IMG/VR virus record: IMGVR_UViG_2585427725_000018 | DNA: 35,588 bases | Strand: one strand, 5' to 3' | Source of the DNA: a virus | Taxonomy: Duplodnaviria; Heunggongvirae; Uroviricota; Caudoviricetes | Shown: positions 4,135 to 13,769 of the stretch, piece by piece | Numbering within the stretch: position 1 is the first letter of the stretch | Layout: each line of letters begins with the position of its first letter | The notes under the pieces: model-generated | Told to the model about the DNA's origin: nothing | What the model saw: only the letters and a program-made list of their open reading frames with translations | Database searches by the model: none | Translations under genes and position numbers: made by a program

Positions 4135-5319
4135 ATGAGTGAAACTCGTTTTCATGGTGCCCGTGTTACGGAAAGTACCGACCTGGTAACAGCGATTAAT
4201 GATGTTGATTCCAGTGTTATCGGTATCGTGGCAACGGCGGATGATGCGGACGCGGAGCTGTTCCCGCTGAACAAGCCCACACTGCTGACCCGCGTCAATG
4301 ACGTGCTGGGAAAATGCGGAACAACGGGGACGCTTTATCGTGCGCTTAAGGCCATCGCAGACCAGGTGAGCACAAAGGTGATCGTCGTTCGCGTGGCTGA
4401 ACACAAAGAAGAAGACGGAAAAACGCAGGATCAACTGGTTATCGGTGGTTCTGAATCTGACGGCAGCTATACGGGGATGTATGCGCTGCTTGTTGCAGAG
4501 CAGGATGAAAGCATCGGATACCGTCCGCGTATTCTGGCCGCGCCGGAGCTGGACACGGAGGCGGTAACAAAATCCCTGTGCGTGATTGCAGGTAAACTGC
4601 GCGCGTTTGTGTATGCCTCATGTCACGGCTGTAACACGATGGCTGAGGCGATTACCTACCGCCAGAAATTCAACGAACGTGAGGTGATGCTCTTATGGCC
4701 AGACTTCATCGCCTACAACCCGAAAAGTGGCAAAAACGAAACGTTCCCCGCGCCTGCCTATGCGTGCGGCCTTCGTGCGTACATTGACCATGAGCAGGGA
4801 TGGCACAAATCACTGTCCAACGTTCCGGTTAAAAATGTGCTGGGGATGTCGAGGCATGTGTTCTGGTCGTTGCAGGCCGAAGACAGCGATGCCAACAGCC
4901 TCAACAACAAAGAAATCACGACCATTATTCGTCGCAACGGGTTCCGCTTCTGGGGCAACCGCACACCGGAAACGAACGCCTACATCTTTGAGGTGTATAC
5001 CCGAACCGCACAGGTGCTGGCTGATTCAATTGCGGAAGCGCAGTTTGAAACCATCGACAGTCCACTGACGCCTGCGAACGTGAAGGATGTTATCAGTGCC
5101 ATCAGGGCAAAACTGGATTCGCTGGTTACTGCCGGGAAACTGATTGGTGCGGAGTGCTGGTATGACGTGGTGGATAACGGCACCACGAATTTACGTCAGG
5201 GACGTGTGCGTATTCGCTACAAATATACGCCCGTTCCGCCACTGGAAGACATGGAGCTTTACCAGACGTTTACTGATGAATTCTTTGGTCCCGCATTTGC
5301 GGTGCTGGGAGGTGCCTGA
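4135..5319 (+). CDS. FI: Tail sheath protein FI
   Basis: 394 aa, strong similarity to P2 FI along the whole length (e.g. LRAFVYAS, LLWPDF, DHEQGWHKSLSNV, IRRNGFRFWGNRT, YTPVPPLE). AAGGGG RBS. Confidence 0.95.
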   Translation: MSETRFHGARVTESTDLVTAINDVDSSVIGIVATADDADAELFPLNKPTLLTRVNDVLGKCGTTGTLYRALKAIADQVSTKVIVVRVAEHKEEDGKTQDQLVIGGSESDGSYTGMYALLVAEQDESIGYRPRILAAPELDTEAVTKSLCVIAGKLRAFVYASCHGCNTMAEAITYRQKFNEREVMLLWPDFIAYNPKSGKNETFPAPAYACGLRAYIDHEQGWHKSLSNVPVKNVLGMSRHVFWSLQAEDSDANSLNNKEITTIIRRNGFRFWGNRTPETNAYIFEVYTRTAQVLADSIAEAQFETIDSPLTPANVKDVISAIRAKLDSLVTAGKLIGAECWYDVVDNGTTNLRQGRVRIRYKYTPVPPLEDMELYQTFTDEFFGPAFAVLGGA

Positions 5320-5831
5320 TGGCTGTACCAAAACATCTTCGCTTTTTTACGTTGTTTGTGGATGGTGAAAACGAAGTGGGTAAAGTGACATCCGTCACGC
5401 CGCCCAAACTGACGCGCAAAACCGACAGCTATCGTGGTGGTGGCATGATGGGGGCGGTAAGTATTGATCTCGGTCTGGACGACTCCGCGCTTGATGCGAG
5501 TTTTGTTATGGGGGGAGCTGTTCGTGCGCTGTTCCTTAAATATGGCGGCACGATTGACGGCACGCTGCTGCGTTTTGCGGGTGAATACTACACCGATGCA
5601 GAAAGCGATCTGTATGAAATCGAGATGCGCGGACGTGTGACGGAAATTGATATGGGGGAAGCCAAACAGGGCGAAGCCACATCACACACTTACGCTGTCA
5701 AAAACACCTACTACAAGCTGAGCGTTAACGATCGCCCGCTGTGGGAAATCGACCTGTTGAACCACATCTACCGGAAGGACGGCAAGGACATTGTGCCTGA
5801 CCGTATCCGTTCCGCGCTTGGGCTTGGCTGA
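5319..5831 (+). CDS. FII: Tail tube protein FII
   Basis: 170 aa; ATGA start/stop overlap with FI; GGGAGGTG RBS; conserved position after the sheath gene. Confidence 0.9.
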   Translation: MAVPKHLRFFTLFVDGENEVGKVTSVTPPKLTRKTDSYRGGGMMGAVSIDLGLDDSALDASFVMGGAVRALFLKYGGTIDGTLLRFAGEYYTDAESDLYEIEMRGRVTEIDMGEAKQGEATSHTYAVKNTYYKLSVNDRPLWEIDLLNHIYRKDGKDIVPDRIRSALGLG

Positions 5832-5886
5832 TAAGTAATATGCAGGCGGCGCAGTGCGTCGCCTCTGACTGAAAAGGAGACAACTG

Positions 5887-6261
5887 ATGAAAGACATCGA
5901 TACTGAAACCCGGAATAACACCGTGGCGGATGATGTGACGGCAGGTGAGGATATGGCTGTCGAACGTGGCGTAAAACTGACCCGACCAATTGAGCGTGGT
6001 GGCGAAAAAATCACGTATGTGGAGATCACCGGGGCTATTGAACAGGCTGGATCCCTGCGTGGTCTGTCGCTGTCTGATGTGCTGAATCTGAAAGCGGATA
6101 CCATGTTCACGCTGTTGCCTCGCGTGACCTCGCCACGACTGGATGAAGTGATGATTAAAAAAATGTCGTCACGCGATTTTATTCAGTTGTGCGCTGTGGC
6201 TGTAAATTTTATGAGCGAGCCAGACTCTGGCGCGAAGAGCGTGCAGGAGACGGCAGCGTAA
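5887..6261 (+). CDS. E: Tail assembly chaperone E
   Basis: AAGGAG 7 nt upstream of the ATG; conserved position between tube and tape-measure genes; contains the slippery A-run used for the E' fusion. Confidence 0.8.
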   Translation: MKDIDTETRNNTVADDVTAGEDMAVERGVKLTRPIERGGEKITYVEITGAIEQAGSLRGLSLSDVLNLKADTMFTLLPRVTSPRLDEVMIKKMSSRDFIQLCAVAVNFMSEPDSGAKSVQETAA

Positions 6262-6425
6262 TCACCCTGGTGTGCTTTGAGCACATCGAAGATCTGGTGG
6301 CAGATATCGCCGCCATTTTTAACTGGTCGCCCGCCGAAATCTTCATGATGACGCCCGGCGAAGTGGTTAGCTGGCGTGAGCGGGCGGCACTTCGCAGCGG
6401 GAATGCAGACAATGAAGACTCTTGA
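5887..6425 (+). CDS. Tail assembly chaperone E+E' (programmed -1 frameshift product)
   Basis: The -1 frame is open from 6159 to the stop at 6423-6425 and encodes ...FNWSPAEIFMMTPGEVVSWRERAALRSGNADNEDS, similar to the P2 E' C-terminus. The shift is predicted at the A7 run. Confidence 0.7.
6157..6163 (+). other. Slippery heptanucleotide (AAAAAAA) for the E/E' -1 frameshift
   Basis: A7 run decoded as AAA AAA in the E frame. The -1 frame has a TAA immediately upstream (6156-6158) and is open downstream, so the shift must occur here. Confidence 0.6.
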
Positions 6426-9219
6426 TATCCGGGTCGCTTTCAGCGCCGTTGACAGGCTGACCCGGCCTGCCGAAAACGCCCGCCGCCTGATGGGGCAGTT
6501 TGGTGACTCCATCCAGCGAACGCAGGGGGCGATCAAAAATCTCGAGCGTCAGGCGCGTTCGTTTGAGCGCGCCCGTGACGCTGTCAGTAAAGCGGATGCG
6601 GGCATCGTGAAAGCACGACGCCAGCTTAACGCCCTTAATCAGTTACAACGCACGGGTACAGTGCTCAGCGAAAAACAACAAAAGCTGATGCAGCAGTTAA
6701 GCACCCGGCTTGAACGCCTGAATGAATCGCGCACACGGGAAATTCAGAAAATGCGGGAACTTGGCGGAGAGCTGAAACGCCACGGCATTTCCCTGACAGG
6801 CAGCGATAACACCATCCAGCAGGCCATCAGACGCACCGAACAGTACAATAACCAGCTTGAACGCGAACGGCAGGCGCTTGCGCGTGTAACGCGGGCGCGT
6901 GAGCGGTATTCGCGCGCGCAGGAAACAGCGGGAAAACTGAAAACAGGTGGTGCGCTGGCAATTGGTGCGGCAGCGGCTGGCGGCTATGCTGCCGGGCGTT
7001 TTTTGCAGCCTGCGATCGGGTTCGGCAAAGAGATGTCCCGAGTTCAGGCACTGACGCGAATCGACAAAAACAGCCCGCAGTTTAAGGCGCTGCGTGAGCA
7101 GGCGTTAAAACTTGGCTCTGAAACGCAGTTCACCGCAGGCGATGCCGCCAGTGGGCAGGCATTTCTTGCAATGGCTGGCTTCACACCACAGGCCATTCAG
7201 GCTGCGCTTCCCGGCGTGCTGAGCATGGCAACGGCTGGCGGTATGGATCTCGGCGAGACGGCGGATATTGGCTCAAATATCCTGACGCAGTTCGGCCTTT
7301 CTGCTGACCAGATGGACCAGGTCGGTGACACACTCACCGCAGCGTTTACCCGTACCAACACTGACCTTCGCGCACTGGGCGAAACCATGAAATATGCCGG
7401 TCCGGTGGCGGGTAAGCTGGGGATATCGCTGGAGCAGGCCGCAGCGATGGCGGGCGTGCTGGCGAATATGGGCATCAGAGGGAGTGATGCCGGGACGGCA
7501 ATGCGTGCCAGCCTGGCTCGTCTGGCATCACCGCCAAAGGCGGCGGCAGAAGCTCTGAAAGAGCTGGGCGTGTCCGTCTCGGATGCCGGGGGCAAAATGC
7601 GCCCGATGGAAGATCTGCTGGCTGACCTCTATAAAGCTACCCGCAAATACGGGGAAGTTGACCGGGTATCCTTCTTTAAGGACATCGCCGGGGAAGAGGC
7701 TTTCACATCGTTTATGGCTCTCGTTGATGCGGCGGGTGACGGTTCCTTACCCAAACTGAGAAAAGAACTTGAGGGCGCACGCGGTGAGGCTGAACGCACG
7801 GCAAAGGTTATGGCCAACAACCTTGATGGCGATCTGAAATCACTCGGCAGTGCATGGGAAGGGTTGCGCATCCGCATTGCAGATCTGATTGACGGTCCGC
7901 TGCGTTCTGTCACGCAGTGGCTCACGCGGGTGGTCTCAAAAGTGACGGCACTGGCGCAGGCCCATCCGGCACTGACGCGCCAGTTACTGATAGCGGGAGG
8001 CGCACTGCTGGCGACAACAGCAACGGTTGGTTCGTTGTCTCTGGTTATTGGGGTGCTTCACGGGAAGCTGGCTACGTTACGTCTCGGTTTTTCTCTCCTG
8101 ACAGGATCAATGAATGTCGTCAGGGTGCTGCCAGCACTATGGGGAATGGTAACAGGTTCCATCTCGTTGCTGGGTGGCGCTATCGGGGCGCTGTTCAGTC
8201 CGGTTGGATTGATTGCTGCTGCGTTTGTGGCTGCGGCGGTTCTCATCTGGAAATACTGGGAACCCATCAAGGCGTTTTATGCAGGGGTGTTCAGTGGGAT
8301 TATGGAACGGCTGGCTCCGTTGCGCGAAACCTTTGAACGGTTCGGTCCTGTTTTTGATGTCGTGCGCGATGGGATCATTCAGGTCTTTAACTGGTTTAAA
8401 TCGCTGCTGTCACCGATGGAGTCCGGCAAGGAAACGCTGGATAAATGTACCAGTGCTGGCGAGGTATTCGGCAGGGTACTCGGTGGAGCGATAGAGCTTG
8501 TCCTGACGCCAACAAAAGCATTGATGGATTCACTGGCGTGGATACTTGAAAAGCTCGGAGTGCTTCCGGATGAAGCGGAAAGGGCGAGAAAGAAAATCGA
8601 AGACGCACAGCGTGCGGCCATTCTTCAGGACAAGGTTGCCTTGCTTCAGGGGGACCTGGCGAAAATCAATCCGCCGAAGCCTGTGGAAAATGGCAATGGC
8701 ACCGGAGGTGATAAACCCAAAGACAATAAACCGCTCACAGACAGCAATACCGGGACGCTACGCAGACTCAGCAAAATTGCTGATAACACAGGTAAGCTGG
8801 TTGATGAGACGAAAAAACGCATTGGCCCCGGCGATATTGTCTTTAAGAACCTGCCCCGCGCACTTGCTGTTCGTGGGGAGTGGCAGGAGCGGAAGATTGC
8901 GCAGGTCAGTAAGCCTGCCCCCGCAATTAATATCACACCCGTGGTCCCGGCTCCGCTGCCTCCGGCGCTGGTCCCTGTTGTTGCGGCCAGCTCCCGCCCG
9001 GTGGCGGAGGCCATACGATCTCCAGTGGCATCAGTTCCTGTAACTTTCCGTAACCGGGAGCCTGTTGCCTCCGGATTTGGTGGTGAAATTCATGTTCATC
9101 TGCATAACGTTGTTACGCAGAATCCCCGCGAACTGGCGAAACTGGTCGGTGAAATGGTCAGGGCAGAAATGGAACGGCGCGCCCGTGCCGGGCGTGGCAG
9201 TTTTTACGATAAAGATTGA
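6412..9219 (+). CDS. T: Tail tape measure protein T
   Basis: About 935 aa, coiled-coil N-terminus, Gly/Ala-rich hydrophobic middle and a conserved IRKYWEPI-like segment. Start chosen at MKTLDIRV by alignment to the P2 T N-terminus; in-frame ATG at 6403 is an alternative. Confidence 0.9.
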   Translation: MKTLDIRVAFSAVDRLTRPAENARRLMGQFGDSIQRTQGAIKNLERQARSFERARDAVSKADAGIVKARRQLNALNQLQRTGTVLSEKQQKLMQQLSTRLERLNESRTREIQKMRELGGELKRHGISLTGSDNTIQQAIRRTEQYNNQLERERQALARVTRARERYSRAQETAGKLKTGGALAIGAAAAGGYAAGRFLQPAIGFGKEMSRVQALTRIDKNSPQFKALREQALKLGSETQFTAGDAASGQAFLAMAGFTPQAIQAALPGVLSMATAGGMDLGETADIGSNILTQFGLSADQMDQVGDTLTAAFTRTNTDLRALGETMKYAGPVAGKLGISLEQAAAMAGVLANMGIRGSDAGTAMRASLARLASPPKAAAEALKELGVSVSDAGGKMRPMEDLLADLYKATRKYGEVDRVSFFKDIAGEEAFTSFMALVDAAGDGSLPKLRKELEGARGEAERTAKVMANNLDGDLKSLGSAWEGLRIRIADLIDGPLRSVTQWLTRVVSKVTALAQAHPALTRQLLIAGGALLATTATVGSLSLVIGVLHGKLATLRLGFSLLTGSMNVVRVLPALWGMVTGSISLLGGAIGALFSPVGLIAAAFVAAAVLIWKYWEPIKAFYAGVFSGIMERLAPLRETFERFGPVFDVVRDGIIQVFNWFKSLLSPMESGKETLDKCTSAGEVFGRVLGGAIELVLTPTKALMDSLAWILEKLGVLPDEAERARKKIEDAQRAAILQDKVALLQGDLAKINPPKPVENGNGTGGDKPKDNKPLTDSNTGTLRRLSKIADNTGKLVDETKKRIGPGDIVFKNLPRALAVRGEWQERKIAQVSKPAPAINITPVVPAPLPPALVPVVAASSRPVAEAIRSPVASVPVTFRNREPVASGFGGEIHVHLHNVVTQNPRELAKLVGEMVRAEMERRARAGRGSFYDKD

Positions 9220-9231
9220 GGAGTCATGGCC

Positions 9232-9720
9232 ATGATGATGATCTACGGCATGTTTGTTTTTGAGCTGCGCACGCTGCCGCATCAGCAGTTACAGCAAAAC
9301 AAAAGCTGGCGGCATGTGAAAAATGAACGCGTTAACCGTTCAGCAAGCTGGCAGTATATCGGTGCAGGTGATGATCGCATCGTTCTTTCTGGTGTGCTTT
9401 ATCCTGAAATTACAGGTGGCGAAGTGTCGCTGTCGCTGCTGACCACGCAGGCGTATACAGGACGACCCTGGCCTTTGATTGATGGCGTCGGGCAGATTTA
9501 CGGCATGTATGTCCTGACCGGAACGAATACGACCCGTTCCGAGTTTGATCGCTACGGTAAGGCGAAAAAGATAGAATTTTCACTGACTCTTGAACGCTGT
9601 GATGAGGATTTGCGGGAGCGCCTGCAATCCTCATCGTTCAGCGATATGCTGTCCGGCTTCAAAGATAAAGTGACATCATCCCTTAACAGCACGGCCAGTT
9701 CAGTTAAAGGGCTGTTCTGA
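9232..9720 (+). CDS. U: Tail protein U
   Basis: MMMIYGMFVFELRTLPHQQL... aligns with the gpU N-terminus (MMVLGLFVFMLRTVPYQEL). GAGGAG 8 nt upstream of the ATG at 9232. Confidence 0.85.
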   Translation: MMMIYGMFVFELRTLPHQQLQQNKSWRHVKNERVNRSASWQYIGAGDDRIVLSGVLYPEITGGEVSLSLLTTQAYTGRPWPLIDGVGQIYGMYVLTGTNTTRSEFDRYGKAKKIEFSLTLERCDEDLRERLQSSSFSDMLSGFKDKVTSSLNSTASSVKGLF

Positions 9721-9890
9721 TTTAATGCTGGCCACTCATACCCTCATACCTGGTAATAAGTGGCCAGTCTTAACACTCACCATTTGATTGCACTGGTGTT
9801 AACGATTTGTTACTGGACATCAGGCACGCTGGATAGCCAGTAGAAACATACCATTAAAATTATTACAATAATTGGTCACATGATTATCTT

Positions 9891-10454
9891 ATGCTGAATA
9901 ATAGAGATATGAATATTAATGAACTTAAAGATTGTATTCACTATGAAGTAATCGGTAGCGAGCGTCCTTTCTCCTGGCGAAAGGCAATTGTTCGCGCAAT
10001 AAAACATAGAAGAGTTCGTTATTTATTTTGGTGGCGCATAGCCAAATACCTTTTTGATAAAGGCGGATACTGTCGGAAGATTGCGGGGAAAATAGAACGT
10101 TTCATTCTTGATAAATATAATGTAACAGTCCCTTTAACTGTAAATATAGGGAAAGGCTTTGATATTTCTTATCTCAACAGTGTTGTTATCGGTCACAAAG
10201 TAACAATCGGTGAAAATTGTTCAATAAAACCAAGGGTAACTATTGGGCTGCGTGGTGATTTTAATGATATGGATATTGTTATAGGACATAATGTGACCAT
10301 TGGTTGTAATGCCACCATTCTTGGTGGCAAAGTGCGTATAGGAAACAATGTCACAATAGGTGCTCATGCATTGGTATTGCATGATATTCCTGATGATTCA
10401 ACATTCATCACTAAATTTCAGTCTGAAGTTATCTGCTCGTCCTCCCGCACATAA
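9891..10454 (+). CDS. Hexapeptide-repeat (left-handed beta-helix) acetyltransferase, CysE/WcaB-like
   Basis: Tandem hexapeptide repeats ([51 protein letters not shown]) after an alpha-helical N-terminal region ([14 protein letters not shown]). AT-rich. Start uncertain (9891 or 9909), neither with a strong SD. 3' end overlaps the convergent gene G by 37 bp. Confidence 0.7.
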
Positions 10455-11035
10455 CCCTGATTCATCAGCTCTGGCCATACGATATCCGGAGCTGTACTGG
10501 TGTCAATTCTACTCACTAATACTCTGTATTTTCTCCAGGAATCCAGTTGTGAATTTTCCTCGTTTGTTGCTATTTCAAGATTAACTGCATCCTGCAGAAT
10601 TGCGATGTTATCTGTTGCTTCCTGGATCAACCTTGCCTTTTTCTCTTCCGCTTCCCGTATCCGAAACAGTTTTTCTGCTTCCTCATCCTTCACCCAGGAT
10701 ACGCCGTCCCACTTCTGATACTCCCCTGCTGGCGACAACCAGGTGACATTCTCTGGTAGCGGTCCGGGCTCAGAAATAAACAACGCGTCCCCCGATGCCA
10801 CGTCATAGACCGTTTTACCACGATGGTCTTCAACAAGATGCCACGATGCATCATCACTGTTGAAAACAGCCACGAAGCCAGCCGGAATATCTGGCGGTGC
10901 AATATCGGTACTGTTTGCTGGCAGGCCTGTATGAGGCGGAATGTATGCGTCACCTTCACCAATAAATTCATTAGTTCCGGCCAGCAGATTATAAATTGTT
11001 ATGGTCCGTGGTTGTTCACTCATTCTGAAATCCAT
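10418..11035 (-). CDS. G: Tail fibre assembly protein G
   Basis: Conserved Tfa C-terminus ([23 protein letters not shown]). ATG at 11035 with GAGG about 5 nt upstream; the track start 11041 is a GTG. Confidence 0.8.
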
Positions 11036-11043
11036 GTTCACCT

Positions 11044-11946
11044 CTACTTAATATCAGAGACAGAATATTGTTTGTTGAGCGTATGGGTGTGAGCACCAAT
11101 AACGATGCTACTTCCGTGGCTATGTGCGCCAGAGATGACATTACCTACGGGATTTTCTGGATTAATCCGGTGTATATGCGAACCAGGGCGAAACCGGTTA
11201 TTAGCCTGATGTTGTATCAGTACATCATCAGCCTGATGTTCAGGGTTAATACAGACCTGCCCGGAACGTGAGCAATATGTCCGATAATCGCCGCATCCAA
11301 TATATTTAGTATCCGCATAACGGCAAACAGAATTACCCGGACGGTATGCATATGTGCCAAATACTGCCGACTGGCGGGATTGTGCGTATTCCCAGTTAAT
11401 TGATTCTGTTTTTTTATTAAAGTTATCCCATGCCTGCTTCATCTGCCGGGCAACACTTTCAAACGGCACCTGACCACATCCGGCTCCCATTGCAGGGAAT
11501 ACCACCGTTTTTATTTTCCTGTCTGTCGTTGCGTGTTTATTGTGCTGAAAGATGGCAAGCAGAGCGGCCCAGGTTGCGTTATATACAGCGTCTGTTCCGT
11601 CAATTGTCAGCGGAACACGCATTGTTGGCGCATGTACCAGCCAGGGATGATGATTATGCCCCGTTTCAATAACAAATGCAGAACCTACAGGCTGCTCGCC
11701 TAGATATTCACGAAGAATATGATTCTGAACGCGGGACTGTAACTGAGTACCGAAGAATGCGGTAATGGCGGCATCAACACCGCCATCCATCAGGCCGAAA
11801 CTATTTGCCGCACTTACCATGCAGTTAAATTCCCTGATTGTTTCAAATGGCTTTCCGACAATATTCACATTATCTGCATTTGCGAATACCCGCTTAAATG
11901 CTTCAGCCATTTCTGTTACTGGTGCAGAAAGAATGAGCGTAATCAT
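11044..11946 (-). CDS. Macro-domain protein fused to a tail-fibre-tip-like His-box C-terminus
   Basis: N-terminal roughly 190 aa carry macro-domain signatures ([20 protein letters not shown]...; [15 protein letters not shown]). C-terminus contains GxHxH repeats ([19 protein letters not shown]) like those at the C-terminus of H. Start ATG overlaps the H stop (ATGA); GAGG RBS. Confidence 0.75.
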
Positions 11947-13769
11947 GCAAGCCTCACAATATAGTTAAATGCGATGTTTTTGACAGTGTTTTCCGCGTTA
12001 CCAGCAGCGTTAACGGTGATGGTGTGTCCATGTGAACCAATCGCAACAGAGTGCGTATGAGCGCCAATACCAACAGTGTGTGCATGTGCCCCAGCACTTG
12101 TAGCGGTACCTGATACTGAGTGGGTATGTGCGCCAGAAGAAGGCACAGTTCCATTCCCCACCACCGTGCCACTTGATGAACCATCCAGCCAGTCGAAATT
12201 CATACCGCCACTGTTTGGTCTCCTTAATGGAACGGTATGAGTATGTGCGCCAGCACTATTTGCAGTACCAGATACATTGTGGGTATGCGCACCTGTGTTA
12301 TTCGTTGATTTAGTACCGTAATCAAACGACGATGTGGTTTTCGTACCCAAATCCGTATTGGATGCGCTGGCGCTGTGGGTGTGCGATTTAATGCCATCCT
12401 GTTCCTGAGACAATACGGCCCGACCAGTGGCGGGGTTTCCTTTGATTGTCCAGCCACGCATATCAGGGAGCACACCAGAGGGATAAGCTACTGCAAGTTT
12501 CGGGTATGCTGATTTGTCAAAAGCCTGCCCCACCATGATAGCGTAACCGTCAGGCGGCGTATCTGACGGCCACGGCAGAGGTATTCCCGGTGGTAATGCT
12601 TCAATTCCCTTTGTGCCATCAAAAGCAACACCACTGATGGGGTGTGCTGTTTCCAGTTTACTTGCAGATACTGCGTTACCTGTTGCGGATAATGCGCCAA
12701 TATCCTGCACTGTGGGCTTGTTTTTATCCGTGTAAGTGCGGTACCAGATGGTTTTTTTTCCCTTGTCCAGTATCACCCCGGTAAATTGTGCCCGGTGTTC
12801 TTTTGTGGTCGGATCTGAATCTTCCAGCCCTGTGGTGATCCTGACTATTCCGCCGATGATTTCGCCAAACACTTCAATCAGGCAGCCGCCCAGGCCGATA
12901 TCACCGTACCCCGTGTCAGTAAGCACGCAGTGCTGTGACAGCGAAATATTAGCCCTGAATATCCAGCTCCCTGTTCTGAAGGCGCCACGCTCATTCAGCC
13001 ACTCCACGAATTGTTCCGTTGTCCAGCGTTGTCCTGCTTTACCTATGTACCCGTTTTTTGCATAAACGCGTGGTGTGCCCACGTTGATCAGGAACAGCTC
13101 CTTGTTGGGGATGTCCTCACCATTGCGGTTTTTCGCAAGCCGACCATCAGCGTTGTCCATGGCGATCTTTATGGCCTTTGGCGTGGCTGCCCGGGTCTCT
13201 GATGTACTGGTGGTGTCGCTGCTTAACTGAGTAAAACCTTTTGTGGTCAGCGAGGCATCCGGGTGACGTCGTGACTGTTCATGCTCTTTCAGTTTGTCAT
13301 CCACGTAATCCACTGTGGCCATCACCATGGTGTTATCCACGGTAAGCGCCACGGTGGCAGTGCTGGATACGGTCAGAATGGTGCGAAATGTTTGTGCACG
13401 TCCGGACCCTTCGGCAACGGTTGGTTTGTAACTTTCGGCAGTATTGCCCACCGCGATTAAATCGCCGTGCTCATCAAATACACCAATTTCCCGGATCCAG
13501 AATCCGCCCGTTTCAGGAGGAATAACCAGCTCCGCAATAATGCGGTTCTGATGTGTTGCGTCCAGGATGACGCGATTAACAGTGTGTCGCCACACCTCAT
13601 GCACCAGACGGATCTGCTTACTGTCTGGTGTGGGCAACGTGCCGCCACCGTCGCCCACGGCCATATGAGTCAGGCGGACAGGCTTACCATCTGGCGCGGC
13701 TGCCTGAGCTAATTTTTTTGCACCCGTATCGGTGATAACGGTTTTAAATTTTCGTGTTGTGGTACTCAT
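11943..13769 (-). CDS. H: Tail fibre protein H
   Basis: 608 aa. N-terminal about 200 aa closely match P2 H ([49 protein letters not shown]). C-terminal His-box repeats GAHTHSV...GAHAHTV...GAHTHSV. Confidence 0.9.

What the first reader, a model, noticed from the sequence alone, without database searches (positions are those of the whole stretch)
9721..10454. Hexapeptide acetyltransferase moron in the Z/fun-equivalent slot, converging into gene G
An AT-rich gene encoding a CysE/WcaB-like left-handed beta-helix acetyltransferase lies between U and G, the position where P2 carries the Z/fun exclusion gene. It is transcribed against the fibre genes and its last 12 codons overlap the 3' end of G. 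Cytoplasmic hexapeptide acetyltransferases modify sugars, nucleotide-sugar precursors or small molecules, so this could be a lysogenic-conversion gene or an exclusion or defence function. A hairpin at 9728-9767 after U may insulate it from late transcription.
Basis: partly seen in the sequence, partly recalled or inferred. Interest (0 to 1): 0.5.

Follow-up and report, generated by a model that had tools for sequence, protein, structure and literature searches.

The report
Fibre-linked acetyltransferase-like prophage cargo gene
A small, AT-rich prophage gene sits tail-to-tail with the tail-fibre chaperone gene and encodes a serine-acetyltransferase-shaped protein that has lost the usual catalytic histidine; it moves between unrelated phages with the fibre tip, and its function is untested.

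Summary
An ORF at 9891/9909-10454 (+), 35-36% GC, encodes a 181-187 aa left-handed beta-helix protein. It lies between tail gene U and the tail-fibre assembly gene G, converges on G, and overlaps it by 37 nt.

The prophage is P88-like (Xuanwuvirus), not P2. P88 itself holds a DNA invertase and an alternative fibre set in this slot.

The protein has a serine-acetyltransferase (SAT) fold but fails every curated family cut-off (CysE, WcaB, EpsC). In its own narrow clade the CysE Asp143-His158 dyad is replaced: His becomes Tyr94, Asp/Glu becomes Thr79. All 94 other distinct relatives in the fetched loci keep His. dN/dS of 0.06-0.11 shows the protein is maintained.

The gene is the last member of a mobile module: T4-gp37-like fibre tip, then Tfa, then this gene with about 50-70 bp of promoter-like DNA. 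The module recurs in P88-like prophages, P1-like phage-plasmids, a 49-kb phage-plasmid and a Hafnia phage.

No functional study was found. My best guess (about 0.3) is a prophage-expressed envelope or receptor modifier that gives exclusion, using non-canonical chemistry. This is a new variant of a known kind, of moderate interest.

The parts
9909..10454 (+). SAT-fold left-handed beta-helix protein gene (181 aa; the alternative upstream ATG at 9891 gives 187 aa). Thr79 and Tyr94 (numbering from 9891) stand where CysE has Asp143 and His158.
   Evidence: (phrog_2154, 1.3e-78); dN/dS 0.06-0.11
9841..9869 (+). Sigma-70-like promoter candidate, TAGAAA-17-TACAAT. It reads TATAAT in the P1-like and '+10' variants. 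It lies inside the 50-70 bp of upstream DNA that always moves with the gene.
   Evidence: This is a consensus match only; no transcript data.
9728..9767 (+). Stable hairpin after U (9-10 bp perfect stem) with no U-tract. It lies outside the minimal cassette. It is present only in the P88-like and 613R2/pMS21199B contexts.
10418..11041 (-). Tail-fibre assembly protein gene (G/Tfa, Caudo_TAP). It converges on the LbH gene.
10418..10454 (.). 37-nt 3'-3' overlap of the two convergent genes. It is specific to this allele type; sister alleles have gaps of +10 or +35 nt.
11943..12605 (-). C-terminal ~210 aa of fibre protein H (whole gene 11943-13769). This is a T4-gp37-like receptor-binding tip and forms the far end of the shared fibre-tip-tfa-LbH module.
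11044..11946 (-). 300-aa macro-domain ORF inserted between H and tfa. It lies inside the module here but is absent from most copies, so it is not a constant part.
9226..9720 (+). Tail gene U, the last gene of the P88-type backbone. Homology to P88 stops at about 9725.

Best explanation
The gene is an accessory (moron) gene of a P88-like prophage.

Shown:
- It encodes a cytoplasmic protein with the fold of the C-terminal two-thirds of serine acetyltransferase: four helices followed by a left-handed beta-helix. Enzymes with this fold work as trimers.
- It is under strong purifying selection.
- It is the third member of a horizontally exchanged host-range module: a T4-gp37-like fibre tip, the Tfa chaperone, and this gene with its own short upstream region.
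- It points against the late fibre operon.
- Its clade has replaced the Asp/Glu-His catalytic dyad that the rest of the family keeps.

Inferred:
- It is transcribed in the lysogen from its own sigma-70-type promoter at about 9841-9869. No Ogr-type late-activator site lies upstream.
- It uses an acyl-CoA to modify a conserved cell-envelope glycan or precursor. That changes the surface read by fibres of this class, so the lysogen is protected against re-adsorption or superinfection.
- Because the general base is gone (Tyr94, with clade-specific Pro114 and His164 along the same groove), the chemistry cannot be the textbook SAT mechanism. Either the base has moved, or the acceptor is an amine that needs no base.
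For: Fold and family:
- Pfam Hexapep.
- phmmer and profile hits to solved SATs, 1e-11 and 1.6e-20.
- The AF2 model (pTM 0.74) matches only SAT structures in its top 50, with TMq up to 0.72.

Maintained function: dN/dS 0.056-0.11 between three alleles.

Cargo character:
- GC 0.35 against about 0.5 in the flanks.
- Present in 184 of 5426 E. coli genomes, in prophages and phage-plasmids.
- The upstream -10/-35-like elements are conserved and co-transferred.
- No TGT-N12-ACA site upstream.

Module:
- The same fibre tip + tfa + gene block occurs in four or more backbones.
- 42 of 43 Tyr-type loci with enough downstream sequence have a convergent tfa within 300 bp.
- His-type relatives in phiNP, JL22 and many viral contigs show the same arrangement with homologous fibre tips.

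Precedent for the slot: P2 fun(Z) is a convergent exclusion gene after G. The hotspot is known to mix fibre swaps with defence cargo (bioRxiv 10.1101/2024.10.15.618418).

From background knowledge: the K1 prophage CUS-3 carries the LbH O-acetyltransferase gene neuO next to its tailspike gene.
Against: - No experiment exists. The JL22 paper states that the reason for the gene is unknown (PMC9603915).
- Known LbH polysaccharide O-acetyltransferases need the His that is missing here.
- The cassette occurs in E. coli of many serotypes, so a serotype-specific O-antigen target is unlikely.
- T4-gp37/lambda-Stf-type tips often bind OmpC, which a cytoplasmic acyltransferase cannot modify (background knowledge).
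- A His-type homologue in Proteus is coupled to housekeeping cysE in all 60 O-serotypes and was judged not to be an O-antigen gene.
- Other homologues sit on conjugative plasmids next to repA and toxin-antitoxin genes. The family is therefore not intrinsically tied to receptors.
- Two Tyr-type metagenomic relatives have no tfa nearby.
- PADLOC gave no hit.
- The link to the fibre genes could be hitch-hiking through physical proximity.
Confidence: 0.3

Rival explanations
1. It is a non-catalytic (pseudoenzyme) beta-helix protein. It keeps the trimeric SAT scaffold and perhaps CoA or ligand binding, and acts by binding or sequestering a host or phage partner.
For: Both dyad positions are lost together, only in this clade (T/K/V79 and Y94). 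The family keeps D/E79 in nearly all of the 94 other distinct locus sequences, and His94 in all 94 of them and in 222 of 248 database proteins. The partner position 79 is now variable, as expected if it is no longer needed. The CysE serine-binding residues Arg192/His193 are also absent. Strong purifying selection shows that the protein still matters.
Against: Tyr94 is invariant, and Pro114 and His164 are clade-fixed on the same repeat face. That pattern looks like a remodelled active site more than an abandoned one. No partner is suggested by gene fusion or constant co-occurrence. No trimer model or binding data could be obtained.
Confidence: 0.2
2. It is a soluble small-molecule or metabolite acyltransferase. 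The acceptor could be an amine or an amino-acid-like compound, with a possible link to cysteine or O-acetylserine metabolism. It would give the lysogen a physiological or anti-phage advantage unrelated to receptors.
For: The closest solved structures and the closest curated families are serine acetyltransferases. In Proteus a homologue is start/stop-coupled to cysE in all serotypes. Homologues are general mobile-element cargo on conjugative plasmids and at int-proximal prophage ends. Loss of the general base fits an amine acceptor; base-less LbH N-acetyltransferases such as QdtC and WlbB are known (background knowledge).
Against: The serine-binding and catalytic residues are absent. There is no SATase_N domain. 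The protein ends in ...SSSRT and so lacks the C-terminal Ile that binds CysK. This reading does not explain why the Tyr clade is almost always joined to a fibre tip and tfa.
Confidence: 0.2
3. It is a genuine serine O-acetyltransferase (or WcaB/WbbJ equivalent), as many database records name it.
For: GenBank and RefSeq records call it or its relatives 'serine acetyltransferase'. The best NCBIfam hits are EpsC, CysE and WcaB.
Against: Scores are 79, 68 and 57-60 bits against cut-offs of 150, 211 and 195. Asp143, His158, Arg192 and His193 are all substituted. The N-terminal half of CysE is missing.
Confidence: 0.03
4. It serves fibre or virion morphogenesis, or acts late in the lytic cycle. For example it could modify the fibre, the Tfa or the dying cell's surface. 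It would be expressed with fibre genes, as would happen in invertible-segment arrangements.
For: In P1-like JL22 a homologue lies inside the C segment, co-oriented with the alternative S'-U' genes. After inversion it would sit downstream of them in the late operon. In virulent S. thermophilus 987-group phages a 30%-identical gene follows the last structural gene in the late direction. Linkage to tfa is tight.
Against: In the window, and in every Tyr-type locus seen, the gene is antisense to the expressed fibre operon, with no invertase present. No late-activator site lies upstream. P88 and many phages with the same tfa family lack the gene: 858 genomes carry a tfa of this family against 184 with the gene. 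It is therefore dispensable for assembly.
Confidence: 0.08

Closest known systems
NeuO, the polysialic-acid O-acetyltransferase of E. coli K1 prophage CUS-3 (with its meningococcal relative OatWY)
   Same: Both are LbH-fold proteins encoded as cargo of a temperate phage beside the receptor-binding gene. NeuO modifies a surface polysaccharide of the lysogen (background knowledge). OatWY (2wlc) is a weak sequence hit, E = 2e-3, confined to the hexapeptide region.
   Different: NeuO and OatWY use a catalytic His and belong to another LbH branch. The window protein is SAT-like, has Tyr at the His position, shows no phase-variable repeats, and has no known substrate.
Serine O-acetyltransferase CysE
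   Same: CysE gives the best sequence and structure matches. The last helices of the N-domain and the LbH coils align over residues ~40-173.
   Different: The window protein lacks the first ~100 residues. D143, H158, R192 and H193 become T, Y, M and D. There is no CysK-binding tail. It scores 68 bits against a cut-off of 211. It is phage-borne, not a core gene.
WcaB / EpsC-type short SAT-like sugar O-acetyltransferases of exopolysaccharide loci
   Same: Similar size (~160-190 aa) and architecture. EpsC is the best NCBIfam hit at 3e-22.
   Different: Scores are far below cut-offs. The catalytic His is replaced. The genomic context is a phage fibre module, not a polysaccharide gene cluster.
P2 fun(Z), at the 'Z/fun' hotspot of P2-like phages
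   Same: Same topological slot: a non-essential gene converging on the end of the fibre operon. The hotspot is known to hold defence cargo, fibre swaps and invertases.
   Different: Fun(Z) is a 528-aa protein that blocks T5. No relationship between the two was tested or is claimed; the analogy is positional only. In this genus the far neighbour is U, not FI.
Invertible fibre segments (P88 invertase module, P1 C segment, Mu G segment)
   Same: They occupy the same position distal to tfa. In P88 the slot holds an invertase, an alternative tip and an alternative tfa. In JL22 a homologue lies inside the C segment.
   Different: The window has no invertase and no second fibre set. The LbH gene stands in their place.
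sacF of P1-like phage-plasmid JL22 and sat of Citrobacter phage phiNP
   Same: Same protein family (37-39% identity), same convergent position next to tfa, and homologous fibre tips.
   Different: They keep the Asp/Glu-His dyad. Their function is also unknown (PMC9603915; PMC6456863 lists the phiNP gene only as a 'fitness' gene).

Membership tests
Hexapeptide-repeat / left-handed beta-helix transferase superfamily | Tandem [LIV]-G-x4 hexapeptide repeats scoring above the Pfam PF00132 gathering threshold | tested here: met
   45.6 bits against a cut-off of 27, over residues 128-162
Hexapeptide-repeat / left-handed beta-helix transferase superfamily | LbH fold, shown by structure comparison | tested here: met
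   The AF2 model (pTM 0.74, LbH part pLDDT 55-75) matches only SAT crystal structures in its top 50, probability 1.00, TMq 0.55-0.72. The first, shallower model gave no significant match.
Serine O-acetyltransferase CysE (TIGR01172 / PRK11132) | Score above the curated equivalog cut-off | tested here: not met
   67.8 bits against 210.65; 43.7 against 397
Serine O-acetyltransferase CysE (TIGR01172 / PRK11132) | Catalytic dyad Asp143-His158 and serine-binding Arg192/His193 (E. coli numbering) | tested here: not met
   The aligned residues are T79, Y94, M127 and D128 (alignment to 8i04)
Serine O-acetyltransferase CysE (TIGR01172 / PRK11132) | N-terminal SATase_N helical domain and a C-terminal Ile tail that docks into CysK | tested here: not met
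   No SATase_N Pfam hit. The protein is 181-187 aa and aligns only from CysE residue ~110 onward. Its C-terminus is ...CSSSRT.
Colanic-acid acetyltransferase WcaB (TIGR04016) / EpsC (NF041874) | Score above the curated cut-off | tested here: not met
   WcaB 56.7 against 194.65 (PRK10191: 59.6 against 196); EpsC 79.1 against 150
Xenobiotic acetyltransferases (CatB, Vat) | Score above the curated cut-off, with a match beyond the generic hexapeptide coil | tested here: not met
   22-28 bits against 300-475. The matches cover only residues ~127-168.
PHROG phrog_2154 (phage protein family, function unknown) | Full-length profile match | tested here: met
   1.3e-78, 263.7 bits, residues 5-186 on profile positions 2-184 of 185
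Known anti-phage defence systems (PADLOC-DB v2) | Match to any defence-protein model | tested here: not met
   0 families at E <= 0.01
Lysogenic-conversion / superinfection-exclusion morons | Non-essential gene with its own promoter, expressed from the prophage, that changes the host phenotype | not testable with these tools
   Only indirect support. GC is atypical. The promoter-like site is conserved and co-transferred. The gene is absent from P88. There are no expression or phenotype data.
Acyl-CoA-dependent transferase activity (any acceptor) | CoA-thioester binding and turnover | not testable with these tools

The most novel reading that the evidence does not exclude
The fibre tip, Tfa and dyad-less SAT-fold protein form a self-contained 'receptor-binding protein plus chaperone plus cognate immunity' cassette. 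The LbH protein, using a relocated or base-independent active site (Tyr94, Pro114, His164), alters the very envelope structure that its linked fibre tip reads. A phage that acquires a new host range would then acquire protection of its lysogen against phages with that same host range in a single recombination event, much as colicin genes travel with their immunity genes.
Probability: 0.15. Interest if true: 0.7.

Novelty: new variant of a known kind. Interest (0 to 1): 0.4.

Why it matters
Phage-borne acetyltransferases next to receptor-binding genes are a known way for prophages to change the cell surface. This family is widespread: 184 of 5426 complete E. coli genomes carry this stretch. It also sits on mcr-1- and CTX-M-carrying P1-like phage-plasmids, and distant relatives are on IncK/IncI plasmids. 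Databases label it 'serine acetyltransferase', which the sequence contradicts.

If the gene protects lysogens against phages that share its linked fibre tip, it would affect two things: predicting phage host range from fibre sequences, and choosing therapeutic phages. The clean, clade-wide replacement of the catalytic His-Asp pair under strong purifying selection is also a tractable enzymology question: a relocated base, a new acceptor, or a pseudoenzyme.

Tried and rejected
- The first AF2 model, from a 25-sequence alignment, was too poor (LbH pLDDT 55-75, pTM 0.55). Foldseek gave no significant hit. A 94-sequence alignment gave a usable model. Coordinates cannot be inspected, so distances around Tyr94 and His164 and a trimer model were not obtained.
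- PADLOC gave no hit.
- A bidirectional terminator between the convergent genes was not found. Folding z-scores were -1.84 and -0.98, and no terminator-like site was called there.
- An Ogr/Delta-type late-activator site (TGT-N12-ACA) was not found upstream. Eight matches in the window equal the chance expectation.
- The idea that the hairpin at 9728-9767 belongs to the mobile gene was rejected. P1-like and '+10' copies start at 9821/9840.
- The idea that tfa of this type always carries the gene was rejected. 858 genomes have a tfa that covers >=80% of the query, against 184 with the gene.
- The idea that the Proteus homologue proves an O-antigen role was rejected. It is conserved in all 60 serotypes and co-oriented with cysE.
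- The idea that the macro-domain neighbour is a functional partner was rejected. It is absent from most cassettes.
- Literature searches found no functional study. Rousset 2022 and Vassallo 2022 do not mention such a gene.
- My Tfa profile may miss divergent chaperones, so the low tfa linkage of His-type chromosomal homologues (3 of 58) is a lower bound.

Full report
**What is there**

The window carries a P2-family prophage. Its FI-FII-E-T-U tail genes (4135-9720, + strand) face the V-W-J-I-H-G baseplate and fibre genes (- strand). Between U (9226-9720, Phage_P2_GpU 1.5e-38) and the tail-fibre assembly gene G/Tfa (10418-11041, Caudo_TAP 1.8e-39) lies one ORF, 9891-10454 on the + strand (187 aa).

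The conserved initiator is Met7 (9909, 181 aa). The ATG at 9891 is missing in sister alleles, and RefSeq uses 9909 in a 99.7%-identical copy.

GC falls to 0.35-0.36 across the gene. The tail genes to the left are at 0.49-0.59, and the tfa and macro genes to the right are at 0.46-0.50. The ORF and G converge and share 37 nt (10418-10454).

It has no U-tract and was not picked up as a terminator.

**Which phage, and what normally sits in this slot**

The flanking backbone is 97-99% identical to Escherichia phage P88 and other Xuanwuvirus members. The homology ends about five bases after the U stop codon. In P88 the convergent layout of the two tail operons is native. The slot between U and the fibre genes there holds a DNA invertase, an alternative fibre tip and an alternative tfa, which together make an invertible host-range segment. 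In the window that segment is replaced by the LbH gene.

The phage is not P2, though, and the far neighbour is U only because of the genus-specific orientation of the F operon. A recent preprint describes this hotspot as a mixture of defence cargo, fibre and tfa swaps, and invertases.

**What the protein is**

- Pfam finds hexapeptide repeats: 45.6 bits against a cut-off of 27.
- The best curated families are EpsC, CysE and WcaB. Every score is two- to three-fold below its cut-off: 79/150, 68/211 and 57/195. Vat and CatB matches are confined to one 40-residue coil.
- PHROGs places it full-length in phrog_2154, function unknown (1.3e-78). PADLOC has nothing.
- Against solved structures, the best sequence matches are all serine acetyltransferases: 1e-11 for the single sequence and 1.6e-20 for a family profile. 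The alignment runs from the last helices of the CysE N-domain through the beta-helix.
- An AlphaFold model built on 94 homologues (pTM 0.74; helices confident, coils pLDDT 55-75) matches only SAT crystal structures in its top 50, with TMq up to 0.72.

So the protein has the SAT fold in a shortened form. It is not a member of CysE, WcaB, EpsC or the xenobiotic acetyltransferases.

**The active site is not the family's**

In the HMMER alignment to Salmonella CysE, window Thr79 aligns with Asp143 and Tyr94 aligns with His158. Met127 and Asp128 align with Arg192 and His193.

I compared 22 distinct sequences of the window's clade with 94 distinct relatives taken from 170 fetched loci.

| Position (window numbering) | Window's clade | Other relatives |
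|---|---|---|
| 94 | Tyr in 22 of 22 | His in 94 of 94 |
| 79 | Thr, Lys or Val | Asp or Glu in nearly all |
| 114 | Pro | Gln or His |
| 164 | His | Lys |

Positions 114 and 164 are further clade-fixed switches.

An exhaustive HMMER scan of 1.84 billion representatives found only four proteins at E <= 1e-30. Pooling all 248 short relatives from that scan and the earlier homologue search, Tyr at this column occurs only in the window's clade: 16 Tyr, 222 His and 6 Asn, with His shifted by one in five of the six Asn cases.

The gene is not decaying. dN/dS between three alleles is 0.056-0.11, both inside and outside the overlap.

Established SAT enzymology assigns His158 as the general base and Asp143 as its partner. 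A protein that has lost both, yet is conserved, has one of three explanations: it has moved its base, it has changed acceptor (base-less LbH N-acetyltransferases are known), or it works without catalysis. These tools cannot decide between them.

The window allele also carries Arg115 where all 21 other distinct clade members have Gly.

**The gene moves with the fibre tip and its chaperone**

BLASTN of the region against all fetched loci shows a shared block. It runs from about 9821/9840 (50-70 bp upstream of the start codon) through the gene and tfa, and resumes in the last ~630 nt of H (11942-12575/12605). The block is found in several backbones:

- P88-like prophages
- IncY P1-like phage-plasmids such as pHYEC7-mcr1, where it replaces cin and the C segment
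- the 49-kb phage-plasmid pMS21199B and phage vB_EcoM-613R2
- a second allele type with a +10 nt gap

A 53%-identical copy sits in the same position in Hafnia phage yong2.

Of 43 Tyr-type loci with at least 700 bp of downstream sequence, 42 have a convergent tfa within 300 bp, with gaps of -37, +10 or +35 nt. The 37-nt overlap is therefore allele-specific and not a conserved feature.

His-type relatives (36-49% identity) in Citrobacter phage phiNP, P1-like JL22 and 18 of 33 viral contigs show the same arrangement, with fibre tips 72-86% identical in DNA. In JL22 the gene lies inside the invertible C segment.

The tip is 62% identical to the C-terminus of T4 gp37. The co-transferred upstream DNA contains TAGAAA-17-TACAAT, or TATAAT in other alleles. 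No Ogr-type activator site precedes the gene.

**Limits of the linkage argument**

- tfa genes of the same family occur in 858 genomes, against 184 genomes with the LbH gene. P88 lacks the gene.
- Two Tyr-type metagenomic relatives (68% and 53% identity) have no detectable tfa nearby.
- His-type homologues are also found at an int-proximal prophage end, as three tandem chromosomal paralogues, and next to repA and toxin-antitoxin genes on MPF_I conjugative plasmids.
- In Proteus a homologue is start/stop-coupled to housekeeping cysE. That gene is present in all 60 O-serotypes and was judged not to be an O-antigen gene (PMC5560731).

The wider family is therefore general mobile-element and chromosomal cargo with a conserved, unknown target. 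Only the window's clade is almost exclusively joined to fibres.

**What it most likely does**

Nothing has been tested. The one paper that discusses a homologue says its presence is unexplained (PMC9603915), and another lists it merely as a 'fitness' gene (PMC6456863).

I weigh four things: the slot, which by precedent holds exclusion and conversion genes; the atypical GC with its own promoter-like DNA; the orientation against the late operon; and the co-transfer with a receptor-binding tip. On that basis my best guess, at about 0.3, is a prophage-expressed modifier of a conserved envelope glycan or precursor that masks the lysogen from phages of the same fibre class, using non-canonical chemistry.

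The alternatives are:

- a non-catalytic beta-helix binder (0.2)
- a soluble small-molecule or metabolic acyltransferase unrelated to receptors (0.2)
- a late or fibre-related role (0.08)
- the database label 'serine acetyltransferase' (0.03)

The remainder is unassigned.

**Novelty and score**

Phage-borne LbH acetyltransferases beside receptor-binding genes are a known kind (NeuO of CUS-3). The gene itself is already annotated in hundreds of genomes.

Three things appear not to have been described, as far as I could find:

- the three-gene module
- the replacement of an invertible fibre segment by this gene
- the clade-wide loss of the catalytic dyad under purifying selection

I rate this a new variant of a known kind, with interest 0.4.

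Noticed in passing
window 11044-11946 (-): A 300-aa ORF with an N-terminal macro domain (Pfam Macro 7.7e-19; phrog_2613, 2e-146) and a Cys/His-rich C-terminal part. It is start/stop-coupled between fibre gene H and tfa. It is an insertion: most related cassettes go straight from H to tfa, and only L039 and L057 share it. A macro-domain (ADP-ribose-binding or hydrolase) gene inside a late fibre operon might be a counter-defence gene.
   Followed up: partly
window 10233-10235 (codon 115 of the LbH gene): The window allele has Arg115 (AGG) where all 21 other distinct members of its clade have Gly. The position lies in a beta-helix turn next to the clade-specific Pro114. This copy may be functionally impaired.
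   Followed up: partly
L002 (phage P88) 7557-10261, compared with window 9721-11041: The genus prototype P88 has a DNA invertase, an alternative fibre tip and a second tfa where the window has the LbH gene. The window prophage has therefore lost fibre switching.
   Followed up: partly
L008, L180, L181, L009 (E. coli plasmids): 36-39%-identical His-type homologues, annotated 'serine acetyltransferase', sit next to repA, a toxin-antitoxin pair and a ProQ/FinO gene on conjugative IncK2/Z and IncI-gamma/K1 (MPF_I) plasmids and on an IncF plasmid. tblastn matched 531 plasmid records in all, 473 of them at below 60% identity.
   Followed up: partly
L097 5171-6561 (Proteus sp.; also L099, L101, L103, L107, L110, L113, L116, L147): A His-type homologue is start/stop-coupled downstream of the housekeeping cysE in secB-gpsA-cysE-X, beside trmL and ugd. 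PMC5560731 reports both 'serine acetyltransferase' genes in all 60 Proteus O-serotypes.
   Followed up: partly
L007 (P1-like phage JL22) 1773-9140: The homologue sacF lies inside the invertible C segment, between U' and the convergent tfa. Inversion would place it downstream of the alternative fibre genes in the late operon.
   Followed up: no
L010 (Streptococcus phage 9874) 5010-5489: Virulent S. thermophilus 987-group phages carry a 30%-identical SAT-like gene between the last virion structural gene and the holin, in the late orientation.
   Followed up: no
L178 6001-7697: An Enterobacteriaceae chromosome (strain BIT-l23) has three tandem hexapeptide paralogues of 181, 193 and 195 aa, headed by a 48-49%-identical homologue. 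No phage genes lie nearby.
   Followed up: no
L173-L177 6001-6627 (E. coli): A 45%-identical His-type homologue lies at the edge of a P2/HP1-like prophage next to the host mntR-like gene. It is separated from the fibre and tfa genes by DUF4760 and HP1_ORF34-type cargo.
   Followed up: no
window 9630-9820, compared with L003, L027, L029 and L172: The 613R2/pMS21199B-type phage-plasmids carry the last ~90 nt of a Xuanwuvirus U gene and the hairpin upstream of the LbH gene, next to their repA. This suggests they acquired the cassette from a P88-like phage.
   Followed up: no
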